A DNA stretch of 64,000 nucleotides from a virus. Shown here one piece after another: positions 1 to 32,228 of this stretch. A model generated the notes under the pieces. That model was given only the letters and a program-made list of their open reading frames with translations, was not told where the DNA came from and did no database searches. The first letter of the stretch is position 1. Every line of letters begins with the position of its first letter. A program made the position numbers and the translations under genes. The DNA is taken from IMG/VR virus record IMGVR_UViG_3300047323_000673, positions 116,808 through 180,807 of that record; one strand, written 5' to 3'.

Positions 1-351
1 AGCATGTTCAAGATCAGCATATTTTTCCTTATATTCTTTTAAATGTGGTGTTTTAAAAAGATAATCCATAATTTTGAATTTTGCTTCACCACTAGCAATA
101 TGTAATGCTGATCCATCATTTATAGTTCTATAAACAGGTTCTGAATCAACAAGATTAAGAAGATAATCTAAAACTTTAGGAGAATCATTATGACAAGCAT
201 TGTATACTCCTTGAATGCAGAAATGCTCATGTGTACGATTTAAATGTGGAGTATTAAAAATGTAATCAAGTATATGTATATCTTCATTTTTACATGCCTC
301 TTCAAATTTAAGGTATAAATCTTTTTCATTTAAATTACTATAATCAGTCAT
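1..351 (-). CDS. Ankyrin-like repeat protein, array member (3' end runs off the window; not in supplied ORF track)
   Basis: ATG at 351, one base after the stop of 353..1213. Open to position 1: MTDYSNLNEKDLYLKFEEACKNEDIHILDYIFNTPHL...GSALHIASGEAKFKIMDYLF. Same N-terminal cap as the other members. Confidence 0.85.
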   Translation of the reverse strand, partial: MTDYSNLNEKDLYLKFEEACKNEDIHILDYIFNTPHLNRTHEHFCIQGVYNACHNDSPKVLDYLLNLVDSEPVYRTINDGSALHIASGEAKFKIMDYLFKTPHLKEYKEKYADLEHA

Positions 352-352
352 A

Positions 353-1213
353 TTACACCTTTGGTTTTTTAGTTTTGGCATCATTAAATTGTAAGTTATT
401 TACCAAGTCATGAAAATCAAACATTTTTTCAATTGCCTCGTTAGGAAATTTTTTTAAATGTTCCGCAATATCTTTCGTTTTTTCAATATTGAAGTCAACG
501 ATTAAATATCTCAAAACATTAAGCATTGTACCATTATGAGCACACTTATAGATTATATCATTATCTTCATGGATATGTATCTTATCTTTAAGATCAGGTG
601 AAGTTAATAGGTATTTAATAACATCTATTTTATCATTTGATTCAGCAGTGTACAAAATTGTACTATTTTTCAATGTTTTGAGAGCAAATGAATAGTTTGT
701 TTCAAAGAAATATTTTAAAACATGATTATGTCCATTTCTTACAGCTAAGGTAACTCCATACTCAAAAGCAGGAAAGTTACTTTTAATTCCTAACTCTTGT
801 TTAAACAAATAATTAATTATTTTTAAATGTCCGTTTTTACAAGCTTCATAGAAGCCTGCTTCAATACCATTAGGTTTTTTTTTAAGATTTAACTCAGATG
901 AATTTAATAGATATTCAACAATATCTAATTTTCCATTAGAACATGCAACTTTAAATGCATCCTTTAATAAATATTTTTTAAATTTAGCAGAAATAATATT
1001 GTTTAATTCTTCAGAATTAATCATATATTCTATAATATCAAGATATCCTTGTTCAGCAGCAATTAATAACATATTTTTAGGGATGGTATTATTGCATTTT
1101 TTAGCCTTAGTAATATTAAATATTTCTTTAATAAGATTTAAATCATTATTAAAGCAAGCAGTGCATAAAACAGAATTAAGATCTTGCTTTGAGAGTTCAG
1201 AGTAATTCTTCAT
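353..1213 (-). CDS. Ankyrin-like repeat protein with C-terminal basic tail (KKPKV)
   Basis: Repeated A(A/C)xxGxLxI(V/I)xYL motifs (AAEQGYLDIIEYM, ACSNGKLDIVEYL, ACKNGHLKIINYL). Confidence 0.85.
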   Translation of the reverse strand: MKNYSELSKQDLNSVLCTACFNNDLNLIKEIFNITKAKKCNNTIPKNMLLIAAEQGYLDIIEYMINSEELNNIISAKFKKYLLKDAFKVACSNGKLDIVEYLLNSSELNLKKKPNGIEAGFYEACKNGHLKIINYLFKQELGIKSNFPAFEYGVTLAVRNGHNHVLKYFFETNYSFALKTLKNSTILYTAESNDKIDVIKYLLTSPDLKDKIHIHEDNDIIYKCAHNGTMLNVLRYLIVDFNIEKTKDIAEHLKKFPNEAIEKMFDFHDLVNNLQFNDAKTKKPKV

Positions 1214-1214
1214 A

Positions 1215-1970
1215 TTAAACCTTTGGTTTTTTACTTATAGAAGTATTATCAGATTGAGTAGATAATTCTTCTTTTAAAGATTTATTTAACTCTCTAACAT
1301 TAAACATATTATCTACATCTTTTTTAAAGACATGGCTCATATATTCTTTAATATCTTCAGTTTTTTCTAAATTTAAATCAAAGATAAAATATCTTAAGAC
1401 TTCAAAGTGATTACGGTCATAAGCTGCTCTAAATAATTGATTCCCATTATCTTGAAGACCAAACTTTATTTTTATATCTGGTGACTCCATTAAATATTTT
1501 ACAATTTCAAGCCTACCTTCATCACAAGCAGCATCTAAAATAATGCCATTTTTCAATCCTTTTAGCATGAGTGGATCATCAGGAAAGGATTCAAAAATAT
1601 ATTTGAGAATATTCAAATGGCCAAAACTACTACAATATAATGCAGCCATCATGGGAGCATCAGAATTAGCATTCTCATCCTTAAGCTCTGGCTGCTCTAA
1701 TAAAAATTTAGTAATCTCAAAATAACCTTTTTCACAAGTAATTTTTACTAATTCCCTAACTTCATCTAATACTTTAAATGTTCTTCTAGCTTCCCACATG
1801 TCAAAGATGCATTTAACAATTTCTAATTGATTATCAAAGCAACCATGAAGAAGCATTTGATGAACAGATACTTGATTAGAATATTTGAACAAATCCGAAT
1901 CTAAAAAATTTTTTAAAAAATTAATATCACCATTTTTACATGCATTATAAACTTCTTGTACAGTAATCAT
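1215..1970 (-). CDS. Ankyrin-like repeat protein with C-terminal basic tail (KKPKV)
   Basis: ACKNGDINFLK, TCEKGYFEITKFL, ACDEGRLEIVKYL repeats. Confidence 0.85.
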   Translation of the reverse strand: MITVQEVYNACKNGDINFLKNFLDSDLFKYSNQVSVHQMLLHGCFDNQLEIVKCIFDMWEARRTFKVLDEVRELVKITCEKGYFEITKFLLEQPELKDENANSDAPMMAALYCSSFGHLNILKYIFESFPDDPLMLKGLKNGIILDAACDEGRLEIVKYLMESPDIKIKFGLQDNGNQLFRAAYDRNHFEVLRYFIFDLNLEKTEDIKEYMSHVFKKDVDNMFNVRELNKSLKEELSTQSDNTSISKKPKV

Positions 1971-1971
1971 A

Positions 1972-2736
1972 TTATACTTTCATTGTTCTATTTTTATTTT
2001 TACTACTAGTAAGTAAATTATTTTGAAGAGAGTTATTTAAATCTCTTATCTCAAACATCTTTTCTACATCTTTATTAGGATATGTGTTTAAATATTTTTT
2101 TATACTTTCAGTTTTTTCAATATTTAACTCAAATATGAGATATCTTAAATTCTCTAATGCTTGTTTTTCACAAGCTGTTTCAAATCCTTTTGCTAGATTT
2201 TTTTGCAAATTATAATTAGGTAAACTTATTAAATATTGTAAAACTAAAATATTATTATCTTTACAACAAGCAGCATCAAAAATTTCTTTTTCAGGATTTG
2301 GAATATTAGACATATAATTCTCATGTGTCTCTACAAAATATTTTAAGATATTTAAATGTCCATATTGAGCAGCACACATTGTTCCAAAATAAAGTATAGT
2401 AGAATTATGGTTAATTTTTATTGATGGTGTATCAGTTAAATATTTAACTATATCTATATGACCATATTGACTGGAATAATTCATAAATTGTGAAATATTT
2501 AGTGAATTATTAAAATATTTTTCAAATGGAGATTCAAAAAGAACTTTCATTATTTCTAGTCTACCTAGAATACAACATTCTTTAATCATTGCAACCATAA
2601 ACTGATCAAATTTTGATTCATGGATTAACCAGTTAGACTGTAAAAATTCTTTTACAAAATTGACATTATCATTTGCACAAGCTTCTTGTAATTTATCAGC
2701 TATTTCCTGTGGAGTAAATGTATCAATATTTTTCAT
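1972..2736 (-). CDS. Ankyrin-like repeat protein with C-terminal tail (RTMKV)
   Basis: SSQYGHIDIVKYL, AAQYGHLNILKYF; close paralogue of 2739..3503. Confidence 0.85.
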   Translation of the reverse strand: MKNIDTFTPQEIADKLQEACANDNVNFVKEFLQSNWLIHESKFDQFMVAMIKECCILGRLEIMKVLFESPFEKYFNNSLNISQFMNYSSQYGHIDIVKYLTDTPSIKINHNSTILYFGTMCAAQYGHLNILKYFVETHENYMSNIPNPEKEIFDAACCKDNNILVLQYLISLPNYNLQKNLAKGFETACEKQALENLRYLIFELNIEKTESIKKYLNTYPNKDVEKMFEIRDLNNSLQNNLLTSSKNKNRTMKV

Positions 2737-2738
2737 AC

Positions 2739-3503
2739 TTAAACCTTTGGCTTTTTATTCACAGAAGTGTTTAATTCCATATTTGAATGCAAATTATTAT
2801 GTAAATCTCTTATTTGGAACATTCTTTCTACTTCATCATTTTTATATTTTTTCAAATAAAAATTAACATTACTATTTCTTTCAATATTTAAATCAAAGAC
2901 AATATATTTTAAATTATCTAAATTACCTTTGTATAAAGATGATTCAAATCCTTTTTCAATATTTTTTTGTACATTATAATTGGGTAATGTTACTAAATAT
3001 TGTAAAATAGGTAAATTATTTTTCCGACAAGCAGATTCAAAAATTTCTGATTCAGGTTGAATGCTATTAACTAAATAATTTTTATTTGGATCTAATAAGT
3101 ATTTAACGATATCTAAATGACCATGTTCAGCAGCAACCATTGCACCAAATTGAGGAGTTGTAAAATTGTCTCCGATTTTTACTGCTGGCGTATCAATTAA
3201 ATATTTAACTATATCAATATGACCGTTTTTACTAGCATGTGTGAAAAAACATTGAATTTTGTGAGGTGAGTTAATTACAGGCTCAAATACAGAATTAAAA
3301 AGATTTTTTACTATATCTAAAGAACCATGAATACAACTTATTTCTAGTAAATTAAGTATTAATTTTTCAAATCTAGGAATATTAGATTCACTTATCCAGT
3401 CAGATTTTAAAAAATCATGTAAAAAACTAGCATTGCCAATTTTTGCCACCTCTTTTAACTTATCTACAAGTTCATTGGGAGTAAGTGTATCAATATTCTG
3501 CAT
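2739..3503 (-). CDS. Ankyrin-like repeat protein with C-terminal basic tail (KKPKV)
   Basis: ASKNGHIDIVKYL, AAEHGHLDIVKYL. Confidence 0.85.
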   Translation of the reverse strand: MQNIDTLTPNELVDKLKEVAKIGNASFLHDFLKSDWISESNIPRFEKLILNLLEISCIHGSLDIVKNLFNSVFEPVINSPHKIQCFFTHASKNGHIDIVKYLIDTPAVKIGDNFTTPQFGAMVAAEHGHLDIVKYLLDPNKNYLVNSIQPESEIFESACRKNNLPILQYLVTLPNYNVQKNIEKGFESSLYKGNLDNLKYIVFDLNIERNSNVNFYLKKYKNDEVERMFQIRDLHNNLHSNMELNTSVNKKPKV

Positions 3504-3505
3504 AA

Positions 3506-4279
3506 TTAAACCTTTAATTTTTTGTTTTTTTCTTGATTAATACTCATCTCAGACTTTAAATTACTATTTAAATCTCTCATCATAAACATTTTTTCAATTT
3601 CTTTGTTTGGTTTTTCTTTGAGTATTGCTGCAATATCATCAGTTTTATCTAAATTTAAATCAAATATTAAATATTTTACAACATCAAAATTATTGTTTTC
3701 ATATGCTGCTCGAAAATGACAATCAGAATGTTCGTGAATATTATCATTATGTAAAACATTAATAGAATGAAGATATTTTAAAATTGGAACTTCTCCATAC
3801 TCACATGCGGTATTTGTTAAGTTGCCATTTTTAATGACATCTTCATTTAATAAATATTTAAACTCCTTTAAAAGATATTTAATAATATTTAATCTACCAT
3901 CTTTCGCAGCATTTGTTAATCCTATTGAAAATAAAATTGCAGGGTTTGATCGTTGAACATGTAAGTCTTTAGATAAATATTCAACTGTTTTTAAATGACC
4001 ATTTTCACAAGAAATTTTAAAATATTCTGTAATATAGTGTTCACGATTAATCCTATTCTGGAAAGGAGAAGACTCAATCAAATATTTTATAATACTTGTT
4101 TTTCCATTAGAACAAGAAGTTAGGCCCATTCTATAAAAAAGATTACCTGTATCCATTGAATAAATAGTATCAAAATCATTTTTAATAATTTGTTTCAGAA
4201 GATTAATTTGACCTGAACGACAGGAACTTAATAATTTATCGCTTAATGCTGCTTCAGTTAATGGAGAATAGTTATTCAT
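3506..4279 (-). CDS. Ankyrin-like repeat protein with C-terminal basic tail (KKLKV)
   Basis: SCENGHLKTVEYL, AAKDGRLNIIKYL, ACEYGEVPILKYL. Confidence 0.85.
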   Translation of the reverse strand: MNNYSPLTEAALSDKLLSSCRSGQINLLKQIIKNDFDTIYSMDTGNLFYRMGLTSCSNGKTSIIKYLIESSPFQNRINREHYITEYFKISCENGHLKTVEYLSKDLHVQRSNPAILFSIGLTNAAKDGRLNIIKYLLKEFKYLLNEDVIKNGNLTNTACEYGEVPILKYLHSINVLHNDNIHEHSDCHFRAAYENNNFDVVKYLIFDLNLDKTDDIAAILKEKPNKEIEKMFMMRDLNSNLKSEMSINQEKNKKLKV

Positions 4280-4340
4280 AATAAAATGTATTTTTAATAA
4301 ATATATTCTATCAAATAGAAACTAATCATCAACTAAATTG

Positions 4341-5126
4341 TTAAACTTTTATCTTTTTAATTGATGATTGTGAATTTTTCAATTCTGATTGAAGATCACT
4401 ATATAAATCTCTTCTTTTGAACATTTCTTCAACATGAGAAAGCTCATATGCTTCTATATATTGAGAGATATCATCAGTTTTAGGTAAATTTAAATCAACA
4501 ATCAAATACTCTACAATATGCCATTTATCAAAAGAACAAGCTGTTCTAAAGTAAATATTTTTATCATGGGAAAGTTCAATATGCTGACTTAATTTAGGAT
4601 TCTGCATGATATATTTAATTATATCAAGGTAGCCTTCCATACAAGCTGTATCAAACATTTTACGAGCCAAATGATAATGATGTAAATCATAATCTTTAGT
4701 AAAGTCATCAATTAGATATTTAACTATAGATACATGTCCTTGCTCATAAGCATTCTTAACCCCCTCTGTAAATGAAACTGCTTCATAAATATTCCTTTGT
4801 AAGCCAGGTGTTTCCAATGTATATTTAACTATATCTAAACAACCATTATTACAGGCATTTTTAAAGATATAATCATTATAAACATTTATATTAGCATGTT
4901 CCTTTAAGTCAGGCGATGTTAATAAATAACTAAAGACCTCTACATTATTATTGTCAGCAGCATGTCTTAATGCTTTATCATTTCTATAATGAATATTTAT
5001 TTTAAAAGGAAGTACTGAAGATGTTAATAAATACTTAACTGACTCAATATCATTTTTTTCGCAAGCATTAACAAACTCATCATGTAATGCTTCTTCATCT
5101 AAAAATTTATAATCATCTATTTTCAT
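4341..5126 (-). CDS. Ankyrin-like repeat protein with C-terminal basic tail (KKIKV)
   Basis: YLLTSPDLKEHANIN, ACNNGCLDIVKY, ACMEGYLDIIKY. Confidence 0.85.
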   Translation of the reverse strand: MKIDDYKFLDEEALHDEFVNACEKNDIESVKYLLTSSVLPFKINIHYRNDKALRHAADNNNVEVFSYLLTSPDLKEHANINVYNDYIFKNACNNGCLDIVKYTLETPGLQRNIYEAVSFTEGVKNAYEQGHVSIVKYLIDDFTKDYDLHHYHLARKMFDTACMEGYLDIIKYIMQNPKLSQHIELSHDKNIYFRTACSFDKWHIVEYLIVDLNLPKTDDISQYIEAYELSHVEEMFKRRDLYSDLQSELKNSQSSIKKIKV

Positions 5127-5890
5127 ATTTTTATTCTTTTATTTGTAGTTTGATTATCTTCAAGCTCGGAAGTAAGCTGTTGATTTATTTCTCGTAATTC
5201 AAATAATTTAATAACAGATTCATTAGGATTTTTGGAAAAATAGCTTTTTAAATCATTGTCTAAATTTATATTTTTATTAAAGATAAAATATTTAATAACT
5301 TCCATTTCATCAAATGAACATGCACTTTTAAATGCTAAGTTATAATTGATAGGAAAACGATAATTAGTTAAATCAGGTGATTCTAAAAGATACTTTACAA
5401 TATCAATATGACCATGTTGGGAAGCAGCAGAGAGTATACCTCCATTTAATAACATTTTTCCGATTCTAGAATTATCTTTTTGAGGAGTTAATAGTGCCTG
5501 TAAAAGATGAAGATGTCCATTTCTAGATGCAATTAATGCTTGATCCATACAAAATTTTGAGAAAATATTATCTTTAATTATACTAGAATTCGTTATTATA
5601 TAAGAAATAATTTCGAATTCGTATTCATCACAACATTCTAGTAAAATTCCATTAACATTATCAGGCAAATTAACATATTGAGAAACATAATTATCTTCAA
5701 AAAGATATTTTACAATATTTAAATGACCATTTTTACCTGCCTCATAAAGTAAATCATACCCATAGTTGTTATACTCTTCAAACATTAATTTATCAGTTAA
5801 TTTTTGGAGGGTTTGCAAATCTCCTATTTTACAAGATTCTTTTGCTTTTTTAAATAACTCACGCTGAGTTAAATTATGATAATCGTTCAT
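5123..5890 (-). CDS. Ankyrin-like repeat protein with C-terminal basic tail (KRIKI)
   Basis: AGKNGHLNIVKYL, ASQHGHIDIVKYL; ATGA overlap with the next gene. Confidence 0.85.
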   Translation of the reverse strand: MNDYHNLTQRELFKKAKESCKIGDLQTLQKLTDKLMFEEYNNYGYDLLYEAGKNGHLNIVKYLFEDNYVSQYVNLPDNVNGILLECCDEYEFEIISYIITNSSIIKDNIFSKFCMDQALIASRNGHLHLLQALLTPQKDNSRIGKMLLNGGILSAASQHGHIDIVKYLLESPDLTNYRFPINYNLAFKSACSFDEMEVIKYFIFNKNINLDNDLKSYFSKNPNESVIKLFELREINQQLTSELEDNQTTNKRIKI

Positions 5891-5948
5891 ATTAATTTTA
5901 GTTATATAGATCTTTATTATAGCAAAATAAAATTAATGAACAATAAAT

Positions 5949-6722
5949 TTAAATTTTAGTTTTTTTAATTGGTATTATATTAGGCTCTAAATTTTTATTT
6001 AATTCTGAATTTAAATCACGAATTTCAAAATATTTATCTACATTTTCATTAGGATAACGAGATAAAGACTCTAATATATAAGGTGTTTTCTCAATATTTA
6101 AATCAATAATAAAGTATTTAAGAATATCTAGATGTTTATGTTGTAATGCATTATCAAAGCCAACATCATTATCTAAATGGATATTTGCATGTTCTGATAA
6201 TTCAGGTGAAGTTAATACATATTGCACAATGTTTAAATGTCCATTTAAAACAGCTTGTTTAAATGCTTTGTTTTGACCATATTCAATAGACAATCTATTT
6301 GTTGGAGATATGTCAGGTGAAGTAAGAAAATATTTAAGAACATTTAACTGACCAGAATTTGCTGCATAAGTGACTCCGTCCATGCATGATACTTTAAAAT
6401 TAATGGTTCTTTCGTAAGTATCATAGAGAATGTATTTAACAAGCTCTAAATGACCATTTATACAAGCTTGTCTAAAAGGATTATCATTTCTAGTCATTAT
6501 GTTTGCATTCTCTTCTAAATCTGGTGATGTTAAAAGATAATTTACAAGTTCTAAATGGCCTTTTTCAGCCACAAAGCTAAGTATAGTATTTGGGTGGGCT
6601 ATAACCTTTCTAGCATGTTTACAAGTAAAAAGGCTTTTAAGAGTTTCTAAATCACCATCCTCACAGCACTGTTGTAATATATCCTGTATTTTTTCTTCAC
6701 TTAAAATTGAATACCTACTCAT
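5949..6722 (-). CDS. Ankyrin-like repeat protein with C-terminal basic tail (KKTKI)
   Basis: AEKGHLELVNYLLTSPDL, ACINGHLELVKY, AVLNGHLNIVQY. Confidence 0.87.
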   Translation of the reverse strand: MSRYSILSEEKIQDILQQCCEDGDLETLKSLFTCKHARKVIAHPNTILSFVAEKGHLELVNYLLTSPDLEENANIMTRNDNPFRQACINGHLELVKYILYDTYERTINFKVSCMDGVTYAANSGQLNVLKYFLTSPDISPTNRLSIEYGQNKAFKQAVLNGHLNIVQYVLTSPELSEHANIHLDNDVGFDNALQHKHLDILKYFIIDLNIEKTPYILESLSRYPNENVDKYFEIRDLNSELNKNLEPNIIPIKKTKI

Positions 6723-6723
6723 G

Positions 6724-7512
6724 TTATACCTTTAATTGTTTATGCTGTAATTTGTTTTTAGATAACTCTAATTCAAGAGAATTATGTAAATCTCTAATTT
6801 TAAAAAAATCATTTATTTTATGTGTTATTGTATTATCTGATGAATAAAGATGATTTTTTATTTCTTCAGTTTGCTCTAACTGCTGTTCAAAAATTAAAAA
6901 TTCAATAATATCTAAATGTGAATATGAGCAAGCTCCTTTAAAACATGAATCATTATTAAAGTGGAAATCTAATTTCTGATTAAAATAAGGTAATTGTATA
7001 AGATATTTTAAAATATCAAGCCTACCACATTCACATGCTGCTTCTAATATCCTTTCTTTGTCATAATTTATATTTTGATGATGAATTTCAGTTGAATTTA
7101 ATATATAATCTACAACTTCAATTTTATCATAATAGATTCCTCTTATTATAGCTTCGTAAGAATATTTTTGTAATTGGAACTTATCATTAATGCTTGGATC
7201 AAATAAAAAATATTTAATGATATTTAAATGACCATTTTTACATGCCCATCTAAAAGCATCACTCGATTGTGAATGAGGATTTGCATGAGATTTTAAATCA
7301 GGAGAAGTTAGTAAATATTTTAAAACTTCTAAATTTCCATAACGACATGCTAAAGAAATACATTCATCATTTTCAAAATGAATATCAGCATTATTTTCAA
7401 GTTCATTTGAAGTAAGTAAATACTTAACTAAATCTAAATTTCCTTTAATACAAGCTACATGAAACTCATGATTTGCTTCATCAAAATTTAATTTTTTATA
7501 ATTTTTTTCCAT
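6724..7512 (-). CDS. Ankyrin-like repeat protein with C-terminal tail (KQLKV)
   Basis: ACIKGNLDLVKYL, ACRYGNLEVLKYL, ACKNGHLNIIKYF; 35-aa period. Confidence 0.87.
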   Translation of the reverse strand: MEKNYKKLNFDEANHEFHVACIKGNLDLVKYLLTSNELENNADIHFENDECISLACRYGNLEVLKYLLTSPDLKSHANPHSQSSDAFRWACKNGHLNIIKYFLFDPSINDKFQLQKYSYEAIIRGIYYDKIEVVDYILNSTEIHHQNINYDKERILEAACECGRLDILKYLIQLPYFNQKLDFHFNNDSCFKGACSYSHLDIIEFLIFEQQLEQTEEIKNHLYSSDNTITHKINDFFKIRDLHNSLELELSKNKLQHKQLKV

Positions 7513-7514
7513 AA

Positions 7515-8285
7515 TTAAATTTTATTTTTTTTGATTTTTTCTTGATTTTCATTTAATTCTGACTGAAGTCCTTGATTCAAATCTCTTAGCTCAAATAATT
7601 TTTCAACTTCATTATCACCATGTATAAAAATTTTTATTGTTTCAGTTTTTTTAATATTTAAATCAAAAATAAGATATTTAAGCACATTAATTTGGTCATA
7701 TTGATGTGCATAGAAAAATCCTTTATCATCATTAATATGTATATCAATATGTTTATTTAATTCAGGTGAAGTAAGTAGATATTTAACCATATCTAAGTAG
7801 CCATGCTCACATGCAAACTCTAATAATCTGCCTTCTTTTAAATCAACCTTTGGATTATCAGGTATTTCAGGAGATGTTAGAAAATATTTTAAAATATTTA
7901 AATGACCATATCTAGCTGCCAATATAATACCTTTATCACAATTATATTTAAGTGTAGGTTTTTGACATACTTCAAGTGAAAACAAATAATATTTAATGAC
8001 ATCTAAATTACCACCTCTGCAAGCCTTTTCATAAGAGTAAGAATCTGCAATAGCATGCTCTTTAAGCTCTGGGGATGTTAAAAGATATTTAAGAACATCA
8101 AGATGCCCATTAAGTGCTGCTAAAGCAACACATTCATCTCCAGCATAATGTATTTTAGCATTATATTTTAACTTGGAAGATGTAAGAAAATATCTGACAA
8201 GATTTAAATCGCCAGCTTCACAAGCATCAAGAAATGTCATATTTAACTCATCTTGAGTTAATTCATTATAATTAACAGAAATCAT
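7515..8285 (-). CDS. Ankyrin-like repeat protein with C-terminal basic tail (KKNKI)
   Basis: AALNGHLDVLKYL, AARYGHLNILKYF, ACEHGYLDMVKYL. Confidence 0.87.
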   Translation of the reverse strand: MISVNYNELTQDELNMTFLDACEAGDLNLVRYFLTSSKLKYNAKIHYAGDECVALAALNGHLDVLKYLLTSPELKEHAIADSYSYEKACRGGNLDVIKYYLFSLEVCQKPTLKYNCDKGIILAARYGHLNILKYFLTSPEIPDNPKVDLKEGRLLEFACEHGYLDMVKYLLTSPELNKHIDIHINDDKGFFYAHQYDQINVLKYLIFDLNIKKTETIKIFIHGDNEVEKLFELRDLNQGLQSELNENQEKIKKNKI

Positions 8286-9037
8286 ATTTTTATTTTTTTA
8301 GTTGATTGATGATTAGTTTCTAAGTTTTCATGCAAATTTCTATTTAATTCTCTTTTATTAAACAACTCAACTATATCATATCTATTATTTTCTACTAAAT
8401 AATCTCTAATATGTTGGTTCATTTCTATCTTTAAATCAAAAATAAAATAATTAAAAACTGCCATTTGATTATTTTTGCATGCTTCATATATTCCATAATA
8501 AATCATATCTGATACATTAACATTATTAACAAATTCTGGATAATTTAGTAAATACTTTAATATGTTAACATGCCCTTTTTCACAAGTAGATGGAAATATA
8601 TCACTTAAGGTTTTTATTTTATTAATATTTTTAAATTGAATATCTGTTAAAAAATAATTTAGAAGTTCTTCTTGTCCAAAAGTTGCTGACATTATTATAC
8701 CCATATTAGCTATATGAGATTTATCTTTTTTTAATGTAGGCAAAGTAAACAAGTATTTTAATATTTCTAGTTGTCCAGTCTCAAAAGAAGAATTATAAAT
8801 AGTGCCAGAATAATCAGAATGTTTGTTTTTTAATAGATACTTTACTATTTCTATTCTTCCAAATAATGTTGCAGATTTAACGGATTCTCGATAATTAAAT
8901 TCTAGATCTGCTTTAATATTTAAATCATCTGATTCAAGTAAGTATTTAGCTAAATTTAAATCACCATCAATACAAGCATGTACGAGTGCTTTATTTAATT
9001 CATCTTGAGTTAGTTCATTATAATTTACAGAATTCAT
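8282..9037 (-). CDS. Ankyrin-like repeat protein with C-terminal basic tail (KKIKI)
   Basis: ACIDGDLNLAKYL, TCEKGHVNILKYL; N-terminus nearly identical to 7515..8285. Confidence 0.85.
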   Translation of the reverse strand: MNSVNYNELTQDELNKALVHACIDGDLNLAKYLLESDDLNIKADLEFNYRESVKSATLFGRIEIVKYLLKNKHSDYSGTIYNSSFETGQLEILKYLFTLPTLKKDKSHIANMGIIMSATFGQEELLNYFLTDIQFKNINKIKTLSDIFPSTCEKGHVNILKYLLNYPEFVNNVNVSDMIYYGIYEACKNNQMAVFNYFIFDLKIEMNQHIRDYLVENNRYDIVELFNKRELNRNLHENLETNHQSTKKIKI

Positions 9038-9795
9038 ATTTTTATTTTCCTAGTTTGCTCATTATGAATTCTTAAATTTTTATTTAAATCTGTATGCAAA
9101 TCTTTTCTTAACTCTCTAATGTTAAACATGTCTAAAATGTCATTTCTACCTGCTTTAATTAAATGCTCCTTTGTATTCTCTTTAAGGGTCATATTAAGAT
9201 TAAATATAAGATATTTCATCATTTCAGTTTCATTACTATCACAAGCAACAATCATTCCTTTATTGCAAGCATTATTAAGACTATTATTTTGTATGAATTT
9301 TGGCAGATTAGCTAAATACTCAACTACATTTATTTGCCCTGAATTACATGCTCCAGTAAAAAGATCTTCCATTTGGTTATTTTTGACAAATAGAATAAAT
9401 TCTTTTGAGGTAAGGAAGTAATCTATAATATTTACTTGTCCGCTTGATGCTGCGGATAATCCACCATAATACCAAGAAGAATCCTTTTCTGATTTAAAAT
9501 CAGTAGCTTCATATACAAGTTTTAAAATTTCTAATTGTCCATTTTGACAAGCATGATAAAATACTATATTAGGATAATGATTTTGGATATCTTCTAAAAA
9601 ATACTTAACTACATCAATTTGACCTGATGCAGTAGCTGATTTAATGGCAATCCATTTATTATGAGTGATATCTGCATGAACAGGGAGTTCATTAGAACTA
9701 ACAAGATATTTGGCAAGTTCTAAGTCTCCACTTTCACAAGCTTTAACTAACTCTCTATTTAAATCTTGAGATGATAATTTTGTATAATCAATCAT
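9034..9795 (-). CDS. Ankyrin-like repeat protein with C-terminal basic tail (RKIKI)
   Basis: ACESGDLELAKYL, ACQNGQLEILKL, ACNSGQINVVEYL. Confidence 0.85.
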   Translation of the reverse strand: MIDYTKLSSQDLNRELVKACESGDLELAKYLVSSNELPVHADITHNKWIAIKSATASGQIDVVKYFLEDIQNHYPNIVFYHACQNGQLEILKLVYEATDFKSEKDSSWYYGGLSAASSGQVNIIDYFLTSKEFILFVKNNQMEDLFTGACNSGQINVVEYLANLPKFIQNNSLNNACNKGMIVACDSNETEMMKYLIFNLNMTLKENTKEHLIKAGRNDILDMFNIRELRKDLHTDLNKNLRIHNEQTRKIKI

Positions 9796-10952
9796 AGTTT
9801 TGGTTTTTTACTTTCTATTTTATTTAAGTTATTAGAGAATTCCTTGTTTAATTCATTTGCTAACTTATTTGTCTCATATAATTTATATAGCTCAGGAACA
9901 CTTTTTAAAATTTGAACAAATAATGTATCACTATCAGAATTTGGTGCTATATATTTATAATCTTCAACAATATATCTTAATACTTCGTATTGATATTCAT
10001 CATCATCATTCATTTGCTCATAGTGTATATGATAAATCCACTCAATACTTTCTGTTATATCTATATGATATTTTAAATTTGAATCTGTTAATAAAAAATG
10101 AGCAATATCTGCACTATCATTCCTTAAAACACTTCTAAAAATAATGTCATGGTAAGTATGTATATCGGCATGTTCTTTTAACTCTAGCGAAGTGGTTAAA
10201 TATTTTACTAACTCTAAATTGTCGTTTAATACAGAATTTTTAAGTGCTTGGTTATTGTCAGCATGTATATTGGCATGTTCTTTTAAATTGTTATCTGTTA
10301 AAAGAAATTTCGCAATATTGATATGACCTTTATCGCAAGATACAATTAATGCTCTATCATCTAAGAAATGAATGTCGGCATTTTTAGGTATGTCTTGATC
10401 AAGTAATAAAAACTTTACCATTGCAAGATCATTGCGTTCACAAGCCTTAACAAGTAATTCATCCATATTAAAAAGTTTACCAGCCACAACAACTGCATTA
10501 TATTGTTGGTAGCCAGTCCCCATTATATTGGATTTAACTGCTTCCTTAACTCCATCTGAAGTTAATATTAACTTTACTATTTCATGTTTACCACTACTAA
10601 AAGCTGTATTGAAAAGAGTATCTAAATTAGATTGAACTATTGTGTCATTTAATAAATATTCAATTATATGTTTTTGATTTTTATAACAAGCAGATTCACA
10701 TCCATCTATAAGCGAAAAAGATAGACTAGAAGAATATGTATGAAATTTCTTAACGATATCAATATGTCCACCGCCACATGCCATAATGAAAGCCATATTA
10801 TGATAGCTTTGATTTATTTTTTCTAACAGTTGTTTATTATCTATAATACATGAAATTGCTTCTAAATTACCATCGTAACATAACTGTACAAAAGTAGCAG
10901 TTAAATTTTGTTGGCTTAGCTTTATATATTCATTAAAGTAATCTGTGGACAT
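9792..10952 (-). CDS. Ankyrin-like repeat protein (long) with C-terminal basic tail (KKPKL)
   Basis: ACGGGHIDIVK, ACERNDLAMVKFL, SCDKGHINIAKFL, KEHANIH repeats. Confidence 0.85.
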   Translation of the reverse strand: MSTDYFNEYIKLSQQNLTATFVQLCYDGNLEAISCIIDNKQLLEKINQSYHNMAFIMACGGGHIDIVKKFHTYSSSLSFSLIDGCESACYKNQKHIIEYLLNDTIVQSNLDTLFNTAFSSGKHEIVKLILTSDGVKEAVKSNIMGTGYQQYNAVVVAGKLFNMDELLVKACERNDLAMVKFLLLDQDIPKNADIHFLDDRALIVSCDKGHINIAKFLLTDNNLKEHANIHADNNQALKNSVLNDNLELVKYLTTSLELKEHADIHTYHDIIFRSVLRNDSADIAHFLLTDSNLKYHIDITESIEWIYHIHYEQMNDDDEYQYEVLRYIVEDYKYIAPNSDSDTLFVQILKSVPELYKLYETNKLANELNKEFSNNLNKIESKKPKL

Positions 10953-10961
10953 AATGTGATA

Positions 10962-12338
10962 TTAAATTTTTAATTTTTTCTGTTCATTTCTATTTAATTT
11001 ATTTTCTTTATTTAATTCATTAGTAAGTTGAATTGTCCTAAAAGCCTTTTTTAATTCAGGATTAGATTCTAACATTTCTTCTATATCTTGAGTAAATTCT
11101 GGATTATTAGTAAATATTTTATGCTCATAAACCAAATATGTTAGAACTTTCATATCATAATGATAGTTAGTTTCAGTTATATTATCATTAACATTAACTA
11201 AATGTTGTTCTTTTAATTCTTGAAAATTTTTAAAAATATCAGGATGGGTTTTTAATTTTGGACTTTCTAAAAAAAACTCTACTACTTCTTTATGATCACC
11301 TTTAAATGCTAAATATAAAGCATAATCATTTTGTGCATGAATATCAGCATGATCTTTTAATTCAGGAGAAGTTGTGAGGTAATCAACTAAATGTAAATTT
11401 CCTTCTTTTGCAGCATATAAGAGTGGAGAATCTTCTTGTGCATGAATATTAGCATGTTCTTTTAATTCAGGTGAAGTTAATAAATACTTAACAGTTTCTA
11501 AGTGTCCTCTATGACAAGCATGCAAAAGTGCGGTGTCATCATTAGCATGGATGTCTACCTGTTTATCAGGATCTGAATGAAGTAGAAGATGTTTGATTAA
11601 GGGTAAATAATTGTGTTCACATGCTTTAAAAAATAGTTTTGTTAAAATATTGTTAGGTAAAAATATGTGTTTTTCTTCACAATAAATTAATAGATAGTGG
11701 GATAATTCGGGCTTGATAGTGGTATTATATTTTACAGGATTAATTAAGCCAATAAAATTAATAGTTTGTCTAGCTTCATGAGGAATAGCAGCATCATTTA
11801 AATAAAATCTAATTAATTCAAGATTATTATTGGTGTATGCTTCTATTAATAATTTTTTTAATTCAAAACCAAATTGATCAATCATAATAATCCCCTCATT
11901 CAATCGAGGATTATTTTTATTTAATTCAATAACAGAAGAGTCAGTCAATACTTGTTTAATTAAACTTAAGTTGTTTTCAGAAATAGCTTTTTTCATTATT
12001 GGATGCAAAATATTTTTTTTGGAATGAAATAAGTATTGAACAACATCTTTATGATTTTCTTGTAAAGCACAAACTACACTATCATACAGTTCAACATTAT
12101 GGAGCTTATTATTTTTATGAAGTTCTTGAACAACATTAATATGTCCATTAAGGCAAGCTAATTCCAATCCATTACTTATGTGTTCGTATTGTATTTTGTA
12201 TTGTAATTCTTCGTGTTCTAAAATCCAAGCAACCGAATCTAAATCACCTTTGCTACAAGCATTAATAAATAAAATGCCCAATATAGATTTAGATGCATTT
12301 ATATATTTTTTTTGTAAATCTTCAGATAAATAATTCAT
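10962..12338 (-). CDS. Ankyrin-like repeat protein (longest, first in operon) with C-terminal basic tail (KKLKI)
   Basis: ACLNGHINVVQEL, ACHRGHLETVKYLLTSPELKEHANIH, AAKEGNLHLVDYL; internal DNA repeat with 105-bp period. Confidence 0.87.
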   Translation of the reverse strand: MNYLSEDLQKKYINASKSILGILFINACSKGDLDSVAWILEHEELQYKIQYEHISNGLELACLNGHINVVQELHKNNKLHNVELYDSVVCALQENHKDVVQYLFHSKKNILHPIMKKAISENNLSLIKQVLTDSSVIELNKNNPRLNEGIIMIDQFGFELKKLLIEAYTNNNLELIRFYLNDAAIPHEARQTINFIGLINPVKYNTTIKPELSHYLLIYCEEKHIFLPNNILTKLFFKACEHNYLPLIKHLLLHSDPDKQVDIHANDDTALLHACHRGHLETVKYLLTSPELKEHANIHAQEDSPLLYAAKEGNLHLVDYLTTSPELKDHADIHAQNDYALYLAFKGDHKEVVEFFLESPKLKTHPDIFKNFQELKEQHLVNVNDNITETNYHYDMKVLTYLVYEHKIFTNNPEFTQDIEEMLESNPELKKAFRTIQLTNELNKENKLNRNEQKKLKI

Positions 12339-12363
12339 GCTATTATAATAATTAACTATTCTT

Positions 12364-12392
12364 ATTATAAACGATTAAAAAGATAGAGTAAA
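12364..12392 (-). promoter_or_regulatory. Sigma70-type promoter for the ankyrin array
   Basis: TTTACT-N17-TATAAT on the minus strand, about 25 nt upstream of the 12338 start. Confidence 0.6.
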
Positions 12393-12455: not shown

Positions 12456-12482
12456 AAAAAGCCTCCAGTTTGGAGGCTTTTT
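12456..12482. terminator. Intrinsic terminator after pncB (bidirectional form)
   Basis: AAAAAGCCTCCA-GTT-TGGAGGCTTTTT. Confidence 0.8.
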
Positions 12483-12501: not shown

Positions 12502-13695
12502 TTATTCTTTAATTTCAAACACTTGTTTCAAGTAAGTCAAATATTCATCGTTTTTGCACATGGTTTTACCTGGCGAATCACTGATTTTGGCAACAGGTGA
12601 GCCGTTGCATTCAGTCATTTTAATCACGATATTCAGTGCTTTTACACCCATATCGTTAGTCAAATTAGTGCCAATACCGAAGAACATTTTTGCCTGACCT
12701 TCAAAGGTTTTGTAAATATCAATCGCTTTCGGAACATCAAGACCATCCGAGAATACAAGACTCTTGGTTTTTGGATCGATTTTCATTTTCTTGTAGTGAT
12801 CAATAAATTTTTGAGCCCATTCTTTTGCATCACCACTATCATGACGAACACCATCAAATAGTTTGCAGAAATAAAGGTCAAAATCACGCAAGAAAGCATC
12901 AGTTCCGACAACATCAGTCAATGCGATAGCGACATCACCACGATATTCTTGAACCCAATTTTCAAGAGCATATTTTTGGCTATCACGCAGGCGAGGTCCC
13001 AATGCTTGGCAAGCTTGCAGATATTCATGAGCCATTGTGCCAACTGGAGTCAAATTATATTTCATTGCGAACAAAACATTACTAGTGCCAGTAAAATTGG
13101 TTGGCAGTGATTCCTTCAAAGCCTTGACAACTTGTTCGTGCCATTGACGCGAAAAACGGCGGCGAGTACCGAAATCCGAGAATTTAAAGTCTTCATGATT
13201 AAAATCTTGAAGCATCTTAATTTTCTCAGCAAGACGCTTGCGACCTTCTACATAAAGCTCATCACTACCATATTGACGGAAATAAACTTCATTAACAATT
13301 GCTAGAACAGGAACTTCAAATAGAATGGTATGAACCCAAGGGCCACGAATAACAATATCAATTTCTTCGTCATCCAATTGAACAACATTAATATATTGGC
13401 GTTGCATACGGAAGATGTTCAAGAATGCAATGTAGTCAGGCTTGAAGTATGCACGAGTGCTTAGATAATCAAGTTCTTCTTTAGTGAATTCAAGAGTGCA
13501 AAGATGGTCAATTTGACGATTGATCTCATCAATATATTTAACCATGTTGGCACCTTTAGTGCGGCACTTAAAATGAAATTCAACATTATGAGCATGAGGG
13601 AATTGATGTAGAACCGTTTGCTGCATAGTAAATTTATACAGATCAGTATCCAACAGCGAAGTGATGATAGGGTTGAATTCTTGTGCTTTAGTCAT
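12502..13695 (-). CDS. pncB: Nicotinate phosphoribosyltransferase
   Basis: [52 protein letters not shown] and [10 protein letters not shown] motifs. Confidence 0.95.
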
Positions 13696-13728
13696 TTTTA
13701 TTACTCCGTTTTATTGTTCAGTGAGGCT

Positions 13729-13764
13729 AGTATATTCTACTTAGTTGGAAAAGTCAACTAAGTA
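13729..13764 (-). promoter_or_regulatory. pncB promoter with overlapping palindromic operator (candidate NrtR box)
   Basis: TTGACT-N17-TATACT (13757..13729) overlapped by the perfect inverted repeat TACTTAGTTG-N7-CAACTAAGTA (13738..13764). Confidence 0.8.
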
Positions 13765-13797
13765 TTTAAAATATTTTAAGGTTGTTGCCCAAAAGAA

Positions 13798-13820
13798 TAA
13801 AGCCCGTTCAACAGGCTTTA
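13798..13820. terminator. Probable terminator after 13824..14339
   Basis: TAAAGCC-cgttcaaca-GGCTTTA. Confidence 0.55.
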
Positions 13821-13823
13821 TCT

Positions 13824-14339
13824 TCATTTGCTTGAATCATTAATATCAGATTCATAATGATGGTCATATTTTTTAAATATTTGCTGCACATACTCATCTT
13901 GAGTATGATATTTTAACAAAGACATTTGACCCTCACTATATTTATATAAATCTATTAAAGTCATAAAATTAATTGTTTTATTATGTCTTAAATGAACAGC
14001 CAACTGTCTGCCCAATATAGGACATATTTCACCTAAATTGTCCCAGTGGACTAACCATTTAGATTGCACAGGAAAGCCCTTAGTCATAGCTATAGCAATT
14101 TTAATAATCAGGATTTTGGCAACAAACCACACAGTTTCAATCAGCCAGATTTTTACAATTTCCCAAATATGTGAAAAATTTTTCTCTAAGGAATCAATAT
14201 TCATAAGCAAATCAAAAAGCTTATTGTCTTGAAAATAATGCCAACTATTTTTAACCCATAATAGTAAAGCTAACATTATTGATATTTTTAAAACCCATAA
14301 GAAACTATTATAGGCAATTCTAAATTGGCGAAAGTTCAT
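13824..14339 (-). CDS. Hypothetical membrane protein
   Basis: 171-aa ORF with two hydrophobic segments; no family recognised. Confidence 0.6.
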   Translation of the reverse strand: MNFRQFRIAYNSFLWVLKISIMLALLLWVKNSWHYFQDNKLFDLLMNIDSLEKNFSHIWEIVKIWLIETVWFVAKILIIKIAIAMTKGFPVQSKWLVHWDNLGEICPILGRQLAVHLRHNKTINFMTLIDLYKYSEGQMSLLKYHTQDEYVQQIFKKYDHHYESDINDSSK

Positions 14340-14412
14340 ATTTTAACCTTATATTATGTCTGTGACAGATATTTTCATTGAAAATAATAAAAATGTATAA
14401 ATAATCAAGTGC

Positions 14413-14445
14413 TTAGTTGCTTTTTCCAACTAACTGAGTTATAAT
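14413..14445 (+). promoter_or_regulatory. nadD-like/nrtR promoter with palindromic operator (candidate NrtR box)
   Basis: TTGCTT-N17-TATAAT (14417..14445) overlapped by TTAGTTG-N7-CAACTAA (14413..14433), the same core as the pncB site. Confidence 0.8.
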
Positions 14446-14473
14446 GTCTAAAATCACGATAAAAGAAGGTTAT

Positions 14474-15007: not shown

Positions 15008-15008
15008 A

Positions 15009-15713: not shown

Positions 15714-15729
15714 ATTAAAGGAAATAATC

Positions 15730-31265: not shown

Positions 31266-31266
31266 A

Positions 31267-32202: not shown

Positions 32203-32228
32203 TTTAAATATAAAATAAATAAAAATGC

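What the first reader, a model, noticed from the sequence alone, without database searches (positions are those of the whole stretch)
1..12338. 12.3-kb single-operon array of at least 15 ankyrin-like genes with a 35-residue repeat variant and conserved N- and C-caps
Seen: 14 complete genes plus one partial, head-to-tail on the minus strand behind one clear promoter (12364..12392). I found no GC-stem terminator inside the array. Members are highly diverged, yet most start with a cap of the form M..Y..L(S/T)..EL and end with a roughly 55-aa module (YLIFDLN.EKT..I..YL....N..V...F..R.L...L). Measured repeat period is 35 aa (SPELK-to-SPELK in 10962..12338, 105-bp DNA period at 11361/11466; also in 6724..7512), against the canonical 33. 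Neighbours are the closest paralogues (1972/2739; 7515/8282 share MxSVNYNELTQDELN), which points to serial tandem duplication. Inference: a diversifying binder repertoire on a constant scaffold, such as anti-defence or eukaryote-modulating effectors. Phage ankyrins that dampen eukaryotic immunity are known from sponge phages, but not to my knowledge as arrays of this size.
Basis: partly seen in the sequence, partly recalled or inferred. Interest (0 to 1): 0.72.

Follow-up and report, generated by a model that had tools for sequence, protein, structure and literature searches.

The report
Tagged ankyrin effector array, bacterial
The tightly packed run of small ankyrin-repeat genes is real, but it lies on the chromosome of an uncultured AT-rich bacterium, not on a phage. 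Each protein ends in a short tail shared with over 100 unrelated neighbouring proteins, so the array is most likely a set of binder proteins exported into a eukaryotic host cell.

Summary
Observation confirmed and enlarged. The window holds 14 complete genes and one cut gene. All are true ankyrin proteins by Pfam, by an AlphaFold model (pLDDT 91.5) and by VIA-align 2 (Z 16). The modal repeat period is 35 residues.

In the full 180.8-kb record the array has 17 genes over 14.15 kb. Two copies of the organism's standard GC-hairpin terminator bracket it. Junctions are 1-2 nt gaps or ATGA overlaps. Thirty-six family members lie on the record.

The "C-cap" has two parts:
- a degenerate seventh repeat;
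- a portable ~22-residue tail ending [KR][KR]xK[VIL]-COOH, found on 107 of 235 ORFs (0.08 expected by chance) from unrelated families.

The phage reading fails. The record carries tmRNA, ArgRS, a NAD-salvage cluster with NrtR, and GGDEF. It has no phage matches. An identical member protein sits on a 2.23-Mb contig.

Counterpart proteins at 60-69% identity lie on ~2.22-Mb contigs. Metagenomic contigs hold arrays of up to 17 genes. The ankyrins diverge far faster than ArgRS.

Best reading: a paralogous binder library of exported effectors, probably through a type IVB-like route (an IcmW-like and a DotL/TrbC-like gene are nearby). Export is inferred, not shown.

Other windows of this scan noted the tag and the array on this same genome.

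The parts
1..384 (-). Array member cut by the window edge. The full gene is record 116589-117191. The likely true start is window 351, 1 nt after the stop of the preceding gene.
353..1213 (-). Ankyrin array gene, 286 aa, ends in the tag. A counterpart at 67% identity lies on ~2.22-Mb contigs.
1215..1970 (-). Ankyrin array gene, 251 aa, ends in the tag.
1972..2736 (-). Ankyrin array gene, 254 aa. Closest paralogue pair with the next gene (46-48% identity).
2739..3503 (-). Ankyrin array gene, 254 aa, ends in the tag.
3506..4279 (-). Ankyrin array gene, 257 aa, ends in the tag.
4280..4340 (-). 61-nt internal gap with a promoter-like TTGATG-16-TAGAAT preceded by TGn. A possible internal promoter; no terminator here.
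4341..5126 (-). Ankyrin array gene, 261 aa, ends in the tag.
5123..5890 (-). Ankyrin array gene, 255 aa. An identical protein is on record on a 2,230,803-bp contig.
5891..5948 (-). 58-nt internal gap with TGCTATAAT (extended -10-like). A possible internal promoter; no terminator here.
5949..6722 (-). Ankyrin array gene, 257 aa. A counterpart at 69% identity lies on ~2.22-Mb contigs.
6724..7512 (-). Ankyrin array gene, 262 aa, ends in the tag.
7515..8285 (-). Ankyrin array gene, 256 aa. This is the modelled member: six ankyrin repeats, a degenerate seventh cap repeat, and a long terminal helix carrying the tag.
8282..9037 (-). Ankyrin array gene, 251 aa. ATGA overlap with its neighbours. A counterpart at 62% identity lies on ~2.22-Mb contigs.
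9034..9795 (-). Ankyrin array gene, 253 aa. A counterpart at 60% identity lies on ~2.22-Mb contigs.
9792..10952 (-). Longer, more divergent member, 386 aa, at least 7 repeats. The family-specific cap motif is weak but the tag is kept.
10962..12338 (-). First gene of the array, 458 aa, about 9 repeats including three clean 35-aa repeats. Ends in the tag.
11324..11521 (.). 105-bp DNA tandem repeat (1.9 copies, 74% matches). It encodes the 35-aa repeats.
12342..12392 (-). Two overlapping sigma-70-like matches (TTTACT-17-TATAAT and TTTATA-18-TATAAT) in the 117-nt spacer before the first gene. The position is right, but the sequence match is not above chance.
12456..12482 (-). Strong GC-hairpin terminator (12-bp stem) that ends pncB. 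A near-identical hairpin follows the last array gene at record 114971-114992, outside the window.

Best explanation
This is a chromosomal, translationally coupled array of 17 paralogous genes in an uncultured, AT-rich bacterium with a genome of about 2.2 Mb.

Each gene encodes a small soluble protein of about 255 residues with four parts:
- a short N-cap;
- six ankyrin repeats with a 35-residue period;
- a degenerate seventh repeat as C-cap;
- a terminal helix carrying a portable tail, roughly L..L..EL..N....KKxK[VIL]-COOH.

The framework residues of the repeats are fixed. The hairpin and helix-1 surface positions are free to vary. Each paralogue therefore presents a different binding face.

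The shared tail is read as an export address, most likely recognised by a type IVB-like coupling apparatus. It would deliver the binders, together with DUF285, DUF4116 and other tagged families, into a eukaryotic host cell. There each binder would hold a different host protein.

Shown here: the fold, the array anatomy, the bacterial origin, the portability of the tail, the old duplications and the fast divergence.

Inferred: export, the export route, and a eukaryotic target.
For: Fold:
- Pfam Ank families are above cut-off in all 14 complete genes.
- The AlphaFold model has pLDDT 91.5.
- Foldseek gives probability 1.0 to ankyrin domains.
- VIA-align 2 gives Z 16.2 over model residues 8-242 against seven-repeat ankyrin proteins.

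Scaffold against surface: repeat entropy is low at L8, A11, C12, G15, L17 and positions 19-24. It is high at positions 1-7, 9-10 and 13-14.

One transcription unit with coupling:
- Terminators of the form AAAGCCTCC-loop-GGAGGCTTT lie just before the promoter region and just after gene 17, with none inside. The record holds 6 of them.
- Junctions are -4, +1 or +2 nt.
- In 54 tagged genes the final Ile or Leu codon plus TGA contains the next ATG.
- The Lys before a terminal Val is AAG in 10 of 15 coupled genes, against 17% genome-wide. This makes AAGGT before the next start.

Tail:
- The strict form is on 107 of 235 ORFs, against 0.08 expected.
- It sits on DUF4116, DUF285, DUF1281_C and unknown families.
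- All 36 ankyrins have at least 3 basic residues in the last 25, a hydrophilic C-terminus, and no signal peptide or transmembrane segment.
- These are features used to predict type IV effectors (PMC3814349).

Secretion link:
- An IcmW-like gene: Pfam PF23130 at 56.7 bits (cut-off 27), NCBIfam IcmW_IVB at E 1.4e-10.
- A gene with a TrbC/DotL-like segment at E 2.7e-14.

Bacterial origin.

Wider family:
- The C-module profile finds 869 cluster representatives, each match ending at the extreme C-terminus among the best 150 listed.
- Metagenome contigs hold arrays of 6 to 17 genes with the same junctions.

Evolution:
- Closest outside proteins are 53-79% identical, against at most 48% for any paralogue.
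- In a syntenic relative ArgRS is 88% identical, but the best ankyrin counterpart is 46%.
Against: - No secretion machine core is on the 180 kb available. The IcmW-like and TrbC-like hits are below NCBIfam's equivalog cut-offs.
- The tail lacks the strict EExxE E-block (0 of 36). Only 21 of 36 have a hydrophobic residue at -3 or -4, and only 16 of 36 reach net charge +2.
- No host is known and no transcript or protein data exist.
- The two ~60-nt gaps may hold internal promoters.
- dN/dS is not interpretable because synonymous sites are saturated.
- The organism's taxon is unresolved. Its permuted tmRNA fits Rfam's betaproteobacterial model best, which is not what a Legionella relative would be expected to have (that expectation is from memory).
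Confidence: 0.6

Rival explanations
1. The array belongs to a phage or prophage, and the ankyrins are phage-borne anti-defence or host-immunity modulators, like the sponge-phage ankyrins.
For: IMG/VR lists the 180.8-kb record as a provirus. The Atlas feature search puts generic ankyrin clusters of Uroviricota and Nucleocytoviricota among the nearest.
Against: - No match in 50,697 phage records.
- No PHROG match for 10 tested proteins, including an array member.
- No viral contig carries the module pattern.
- The record holds tmRNA, ArgRS, NAD synthase, pncB with NrtR, and GGDEF.
- A protein identical to a member lies on a 2,230,803-bp contig, and counterparts lie on ~2.22-Mb contigs seen in dozens of assemblies.
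Confidence: 0.03
2. The proteins stay inside the bacterium. The tail would be a recognition tag for an AAA+ unfoldase or protease, or for sorting into an internal compartment. The ankyrins would then act on bacterial or phage targets, for example in defence.
For: The IcmW-like gene sits next to a 487-aa AAA+ ATPase. C-terminal tags read by AAA+ machines are well known (the ssrA tag; general knowledge). No export machine core was seen on the record.
Against: - Nearly half of the ORFs on the record carry the tail. They include repeat families typical of host-interaction proteins: ankyrin, DUF285 and DUF4116.
- Fast divergence and array turnover fit conflict with an outside partner.
- A degradation tag on that many proteins would be costly.
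Confidence: 0.12
3. The proteins are exported, but the basic end of the tail works in the host rather than at the bacterial machine. K-K-x-K matches the classical monopartite nuclear-localisation consensus. Export would then go by another route such as type I secretion, as for Orientia ankyrins.
For: The last five residues fit K-[KR]-x-[KR] (the consensus itself is general knowledge). Orientia ankyrin proteins are type I substrates (PMC4315096).
Against: - The motif is fixed at the very C-terminus and always followed by one aliphatic residue. This points to recognition of a free end rather than to an internal nuclear signal.
- The last 50 residues are not enriched in LDAVTSIF (0.46 against 0.51 in the rest of the protein) and not poor in KHPMWC (0.21 against 0.19). 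These are the type I criteria.
- No F-box or PRANC domain is present.
Confidence: 0.15
4. The DNA is giant-virus DNA. Nucleocytoviricota commonly carry tandem arrays of ankyrin, DUF285-like and DUF4116 paralogues and some aminoacyl-tRNA synthetases.
For: AT-rich DNA, paralogue arrays and an ArgRS. Nucleocytoviricota ankyrin clusters are among the nearest Atlas hits.
Against: - Bacterial permuted tmRNA at 140 bits.
- The NrtR regulator with pncB and GGDEF.
- Rho-independent terminators and ATGA-coupled polycistrons.
- An IcmW homologue.
Confidence: 0.02

Closest known systems
Orientia tsutsugamushi Ank effector family (PMC4315096, PMC4148323)
   Same: A large paralogous family of small ankyrin proteins in a bacterium. 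Each has a variable repeat domain followed by a conserved C-terminal module and a C-terminal export signal. No Sec signal.
   Different: - Orientia's module is an F-box-like (PRANC) domain and export is type I.
- Here no F-box or PRANC domain is found and the type I composition rule is not met.
- The tail here is shared with unrelated families.
- The genes here sit in long coupled arrays.
Legionella/Coxiella Dot/Icm ankyrin effectors and their C-terminal translocation signal (PMC3814349, PMC5802825)
   Same: Ankyrin proteins without a signal peptide, with a hydrophilic, charged C-terminal signal of about 25-35 residues. An IcmW homologue is present on the same DNA. There is weak NCBIfam similarity to AnkG and AnkF effectors through the repeats.
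   Different: - Legionella signals are loose and have no fixed end motif. Here the tail is a sharp consensus ending KKxK[VIL].
- There is no EExxE block.
- Legionella ankyrin genes are scattered, not in 17-gene arrays (from memory).
- No machine core was seen on this record.
Expanded effector-like gene families of intracellular bacteria: Ca. Ichthyocystis IchFam families (PMC4943182) and Parachlamydiaceae F-box/BTB/LRR expansions (PMC4209131)
   Same: Reduced genomes of about 2-2.6 Mb in which families made by duplication and diversification fill a large share of the genome and are predicted effectors.
   Different: - Those families are mostly of unknown fold or are ubiquitination-related.
- No common C-terminal tail across families has been described there, as far as I read.
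- Here the fold is a clean six-to-seven-repeat ankyrin.
Sponge-phage ankyrin ANKp and ankyrin arrays of poxviruses and giant viruses
   Same: Small ankyrin proteins used by a parasite against a eukaryotic host. In large DNA viruses they occur as tandem paralogue arrays, often as ankyrin repeats plus a C-terminal module.
   Different: - This array is not viral.
- It has no PRANC or F-box domain.
- It has no N-terminal signal peptide.
Designed ankyrin repeat proteins (DARPins)
   Same: Fixed framework, capping repeats, and variation confined to the hairpin and the end of helix 1. DARPin structures are among the best structural matches at Z 14-15.
   Different: This is a natural family with a 35-residue rather than a 33-residue repeat. 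It lacks the TPLH motif and carries an export-like tail.

Membership tests
Ankyrin repeat superfamily (Pfam clan Ank) | Significant match to the Pfam Ank profiles | tested here: met
   Ank_2 E from 6e-12 to 4e-25, above the cut-off, in all 14 complete genes.
Ankyrin repeat superfamily (Pfam clan Ank) | Stacked helix-turn-helix repeats forming a curved solenoid | tested here: met
   Model pLDDT 91.5 with paired helices. Foldseek probability 1.0. VIA-align 2 Z 16.2, 204 residues aligned, rmsd 4.1.
Ankyrin repeat superfamily (Pfam clan Ank) | Typical but not defining: 33-residue period and TPLH / GADVNA motifs | tested here: not met
   The modal period is 35 (68 of 157 spacings). The repeat consensus has L..AC..G.L.IVKYLL.SP.L, with no TPLH. 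The two extra residues lie in the loop after helix 2.
Dot/Icm (type IVB) translocated effectors | The genome encodes a type IVB machine | tested here: inconclusive
   Only 180 kb is held. An IcmW-like gene (PF23130, 56.7 bits) and a TrbC/DotL-like segment (E 2.7e-14) are present, both under NCBIfam equivalog cut-offs. No core parts were seen. The tool that could fetch the 2.23-Mb contig was closed.
Dot/Icm (type IVB) translocated effectors | C-terminal signal features: basic, hydrophilic, hydrophobic residue at -3 or -4, E-block | tested here: inconclusive
   At least 3 basic residues in 36 of 36. Net charge of +2 or more in 16 of 36. Hydrophobic residue at -3 or -4 in 21 of 36. EExxE in 0 of 36. 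At least 2 acidic residues at -20 to -9 in 28 of 36. Criteria from PMC3814349.
Dot/Icm (type IVB) translocated effectors | Machine-dependent translocation into host cells | not testable with these tools
   Needs a reporter-fusion assay.
Orientia-type Ank / F-box (PRANC) type I substrates | C-terminal F-box-like or PRANC domain | tested here: not met
   No F-box or PRANC hit at E up to 0.01 in whole proteins, nor at E up to 1 in 32 isolated C-modules. No PDB sequence relative.
Orientia-type Ank / F-box (PRANC) type I substrates | Last 50 residues rich in LDAVTSIF and poor in KHPMWC | tested here: not met
   LDAVTSIF 0.46 and KHPMWC 0.21 in the last 50 residues, against 0.51 and 0.19 in the rest of the protein.
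Phage-encoded ankyrins (sponge 'ankyphage' ANKp) | Gene lies in a phage genome or prophage | tested here: not met
   No phage-record match, no PHROG hits, bacterial housekeeping genes around it, and an identical protein on a 2.23-Mb contig.

The most novel reading that the evidence does not exclude
The ankyrin array is one module of a tail-addressed arsenal in which one sharp C-terminal address marks every substrate. The address, an amphipathic L..EL helix, a polar linker and KKxK[VIL]-COOH, would be read not by a canonical Dot/Icm coupling complex but by a so far undescribed handling device built around the IcmW-like protein and its neighbouring AAA+ ATPase. If so, the whole effector set of this lineage could be read straight from the sequence. 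The six-repeat ankyrins would then be a natural DARPin-like library against protist proteins.
Probability: 0.15. Interest if true: 0.85.

Novelty: new variant of a known kind. Interest (0 to 1): 0.55.

Why it matters
Ankyrin effectors are a main tool of intracellular bacteria, but their repertoires are usually scattered and hard to define because export signals are fuzzy. Here the substrates appear to be marked by a sharp tail. They are laid out in long coupled arrays, and framework and surface positions are cleanly separated. If export is confirmed, this lineage would offer three things:
- a readable effector catalogue;
- a compact transferable export tag;
- a natural library of small ankyrin binders whose targets could map host pathways in protists.

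The record also shows that a 180-kb 'provirus' call in a virus database can be a bacterial effector island.

Tried and rejected
The 2.2-Mb contigs holding identical and counterpart proteins could therefore not be fetched, and gene order there is unknown.
- Two genome-contig scans (one protein, one alignment) found no relative in the species-representative genomes.
- The first metagenome scan also found nothing.
The taxon stays unresolved.
- A word-based search with the C-module found nothing. The exhaustive profile search was needed.
- A degenerate DNA pattern for the module found no viral contig.
- The C-module has no Pfam or PDB sequence relative.
- The Atlas gave only generic ankyrin neighbours.
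- Nei-Gojobori dN/dS on the closest paralogues and on syntenic pairs is saturated (pS 0.45-0.59) in this AT-rich DNA, so no selection claim is made.
- By eye, the upstream regions of the array heads show no shared regulatory motif.
- The three weak terminator-like sites inside the array have only 3 GC pairs, lie in coding sequence, and are within chance (5 found, 2.9 expected).
- Ca. Ichthyocystis was considered as the source organism because of the beta-type tmRNA and a similar genome size. Its described families do not match, so it is kept only as an analogue.

Full report
**1. What is in the sequence**

The window holds 14 complete minus-strand ORFs of 251-458 aa between 353 and 12338, plus one ORF that runs off the left edge. 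All 14 complete genes exceed Pfam's Ank_2 cut-off. The cut gene passes Ank_3 only.

The window is bases 116808-180807 of a 180,807-bp IMG/VR record. On the whole record the array continues for three genes in all: the cut one and two more. That makes 17 genes from 114996 to 129145, or 14.15 kb.

A profile of the family finds 36 members on the record:
- the 17-gene array;
- a second head-to-tail array of 15 genes at 90.8-100.9 kb;
- three genes at 83.5-85.9 kb;
- two singles.

GC is 24-27% in the array and 28-33% in the neighbouring housekeeping DNA.

**2. Fold and repeat**

An AlphaFold model of the 256-aa member (window 7515-8285) was built on a 30-member family alignment. It has mean pLDDT 91.5 and shows paired helices.

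Foldseek gives probability 1.0 to ankyrin domains. VIA-align 2 gives Z 16.2, with 204 residues aligned at rmsd 4.1. Model residues 8-242 are laid on seven-repeat ankyrin proteins such as gankyrin and DARPins.

The protein is therefore built as follows:
- an N-cap;
- six regular repeats;
- a degenerate seventh repeat, made of a short helix at 215-220 and the start of the long helix at 225-254;
- the end of that long helix, which projects as the tail.

A repeat profile built from the family gives 157 spacings between successive repeats: 35 aa in 68, 34 aa in 27 and 33 aa in 15. The 105-bp DNA period is seen by TRF at 11324-11521.

The two extra residues lie in the loop after helix 2, where S-P-E-L-K-x-H-A-x-I-H replaces the usual G-A-D-V-N-A. 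There is no TPLH motif. The 35-residue variant is real, but it is a loop-length variant of an ordinary ankyrin repeat.

**3. Constant scaffold, variable face**

Over 68 aligned 35-aa repeats, entropy is low at the framework: L8, A11, C12, G15, L17, positions 19-24 (I-V-K-Y-L-L), S26 and P27. It is high at positions 1-7, 9-10, 13-14, 28 and 31-32.

The variable positions correspond to the hairpin and the end of helix 1. These are the positions randomised in DARPins (general knowledge).

**4. Caps**

The N-cap motif in its strict form is in 5 of the 17 array genes. A loose form is in 14 of 17, but in only 16 of the 36 family members. It marks this array's sub-family.

The "55-aa C-cap" has two parts.

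The family-specific part is Y-L-I-F-D-L-N-I-x-K-T ... M-F. It is helix 2 of repeat six plus the cap repeat.

The last ~22 residues are not family-specific:
- The strict form [KR][KR]xK[VIL]-COOH ends 107 of the record's 235 ORFs of at least 80 aa that are not nested in a longer ORF. From the motif's internal frequency, 0.08 would be expected.
- The same L..EL..N....KKxK[VIL] consensus appears on the 78 tagged non-ankyrin proteins.
- In this window these include three DUF4116 proteins, a DUF285 protein, a DUF1281_C protein and several proteins with no known domain.

The isolated C-module has no Pfam relative and no PDB sequence relative. It is not an F-box or PRANC domain.

**5. Transcription and translation**

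- A 12-bp-stem GC hairpin with a T-run (window 12482-12456) ends the upstream pncB gene.
- A near-identical hairpin follows the stop of gene 17 within a few bases.
- This AAAGCCTCC-loop-GGAGGCTTT hairpin occurs six times on the record and never inside the array.
Such matches are no commoner than chance in this DNA: 106 found against 115 expected.
- Fourteen of the 16 junctions are tightly coupled: seven are 1-2 nt gaps, five are 4-nt ATGA overlaps, one is a 9-nt gap, and the 32-nt overlap at the cut gene becomes a 1-nt gap if that gene starts at window 351.
- The other two junctions are gaps of 58 and 61 nt that contain extended -10-like sequences.

The array is therefore one terminator-bounded unit. 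It may have up to two internal promoters.

The tail is woven into the coupling:
- In 54 tagged genes the final Ile or Leu codon plus TGA (ATATGA or TTATGA) contains the next ATG.
- When the tail ends in Val and a gene follows closely, the preceding Lys codon is AAG in 10 of 15 cases, against 17% genome-wide. This creates AAGGT six bases before the next start.

**6. Not a phage**

The record carries the following:
- a permuted tmRNA (140 bits);
- pncB, an NMN-adenylyltransferase-like gene and the bacterial regulator NrtR directly beside the array;
- GGDEF, a photolyase and an SBP-VWA protein;
- ArgRS and NAD synthase.

Ten proteins, including an array member, match no PHROG family. The array member matches none of 50,697 phage records.

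A protein identical to window 5123-5890 is on record on a 2,230,803-bp contig. The 'provirus' label is best read as a miscall on a bacterial effector-rich region.

**7. Relatives and tempo**

A profile of the C-module finds 869 cluster representatives at E up to 1e-3, and 214 at E up to 1e-10. Every match among the best 150 listed ends at, or within four residues of, the C-terminus of an ankyrin-sized protein.

Ten metagenome contigs at 24-33% GC encode family members. Five of them (24-27% GC) carry head-to-tail arrays of 6, 7, 8, 11 and 17 genes with the same overlaps and tails.

For most members the closest outside protein is nearer (53-79% identity) than any paralogue (at most 48%). The counterparts of window genes 353, 5949, 8282 and 9034, at 60-69% identity, all lie on the same ~2.22-Mb contigs, which are seen in dozens of assemblies. 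These duplications therefore appear to predate the split of at least two lineages, and individual paralogues are kept.

Divergence is nevertheless fast. In a syntenic relative (L024) ArgRS is 88% identical. The neighbouring tagged 201-aa protein is 51% identical. The best ankyrin counterpart is 46%, and it matches a different array position than the adjacent one.

Within the array, neighbours are more alike than distant members (Spearman -0.44; 0 of 2000 permutations reach it). This fits local tandem duplication.

dN/dS cannot be read because synonymous sites are saturated.

**8. Mechanism**

The proteins have no signal peptide and no transmembrane segment. They have hydrophilic C-termini, and all have at least 3 basic residues in the last 25. 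These features are used to predict type IV effectors (PMC3814349).

The record holds two secretion-related genes:
- an IcmW homologue;
- a gene with a TrbC/DotL-like segment.

Both are below equivalog cut-offs, and no machine core is on the 180 kb. The type I composition rule is not met.

I therefore read the array as a library of exported ankyrin binders whose tail is the export address, most likely for a type IVB-like route. My confidence is about 0.6 for export and lower for the route.

Rivals are:
- an intracellular AAA+-read tag;
- a host-acting nuclear-signal role for K-K-x-K;
- the viral readings, which are nearly excluded.

**9. Comparison and verdict**

The closest known cases are the Orientia Ank family, the Legionella and Coxiella Ank effectors, the expanded effector families of Ca. 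Ichthyocystis and the Parachlamydiaceae, and the ankyrin arrays of large DNA viruses.

Four things differ here:
- the long coupled arrays;
- the uniform six-plus-one repeat scaffold with a 35-residue period;
- a cap repeat that runs into the tail;
- a sharp tail shared across unrelated families.

This is a new variant of a known kind. The tail and the 17-gene array were also noted on this same genome in other windows of this scan. I tested those leads here and did not rely on them.

Noticed in passing
window 47144-47559 (+): A circularly permuted, two-piece tmRNA with tag peptide ANDTNYSLAA. The best Rfam fit is the betaproteobacterial model (RF01850, 140 bits), and RF04321 (permuted) also matches. 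It is a hint to the taxon and argues against a Legionella-type lineage.
   Followed up: partly
whole record; junctions listed: The codons of the C-terminal tail double as translation-coupling signals. ATATGA or TTATGA at 54 gene ends contains the next ATG. AAG is enriched (10 of 15, against 17% genome-wide) before a terminal Val, giving AAGGT ahead of the next start.
   Followed up: yes
window 12502-15713: A NAD-salvage cluster right next to the array: pncB (NAPRTase), a cytidylyltransferase-like (NMNAT-like) gene, and the Nudix-type regulator NrtR. NAD synthase lies further upstream at record 59260-60195.
   Followed up: partly
window 15658-16773, 43968-47157, 48427-49432, 54918-56523, 58317-59771, 61666-62475: Non-ankyrin proteins with the same tail: three DUF4116 proteins, one DUF285 protein, a pair of neighbouring proteins (one tested and carrying DUF1281_C), and four proteins with no clear domain, one of which has a weak sub-threshold Ank_2 match.
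   Followed up: partly
record 1770-2222 and 279-1742; record 37037-37978: An IcmW-like gene (PF23130, 56.7 bits) sits beside a 487-aa AAA+ ATPase. A 313-aa protein has a segment matching the conjugative TrbC / DotL-type model (E 2.7e-14). Both are below equivalog cut-offs.
   Followed up: partly
record 59217, 60278, 90086, 114971, 129263, 167407: A recurring, two-way readable terminator hairpin, AAAGCCTCC-loop-GGAGGCTTT, occurs six times in 180 kb. Two copies bracket the 17-gene array.
   Followed up: yes
window 31219-33829 (+): Three consecutive proteins with Gly/Ser-rich ends finishing in W or in an acidic D/F/W run. They have no Pfam or PHROG match. This is a different kind of C-terminal end from the Lys tail.
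   Followed up: no
window 42330-43430 (-): A single-chain PheRS-like protein of the mitochondrial type (tRNA-synt_2d plus FDX-ACB in 366 aa).
   Followed up: no
record 60304-61131 and 73263-73925: Two further ankyrin proteins without the tail and outside the family. Not every ankyrin in this organism is tagged.
   Followed up: no
L023 (JACCDQ011652650.1, 436-kb contig, 33% GC), 9956-10369: A truncated family member that ends inside the cap motif and lacks the tail. It lies beside genes syntenic with window 24532-26917. This looks like a decayed copy in a less AT-rich relative that has few tagged genes.
   Followed up: partly
whole record: IMG/VR lists this 180.8-kb stretch as a provirus at 28% completeness. 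The content and the 2.23-Mb parent contig indicate a bacterial effector island miscalled as viral.
   Followed up: yes
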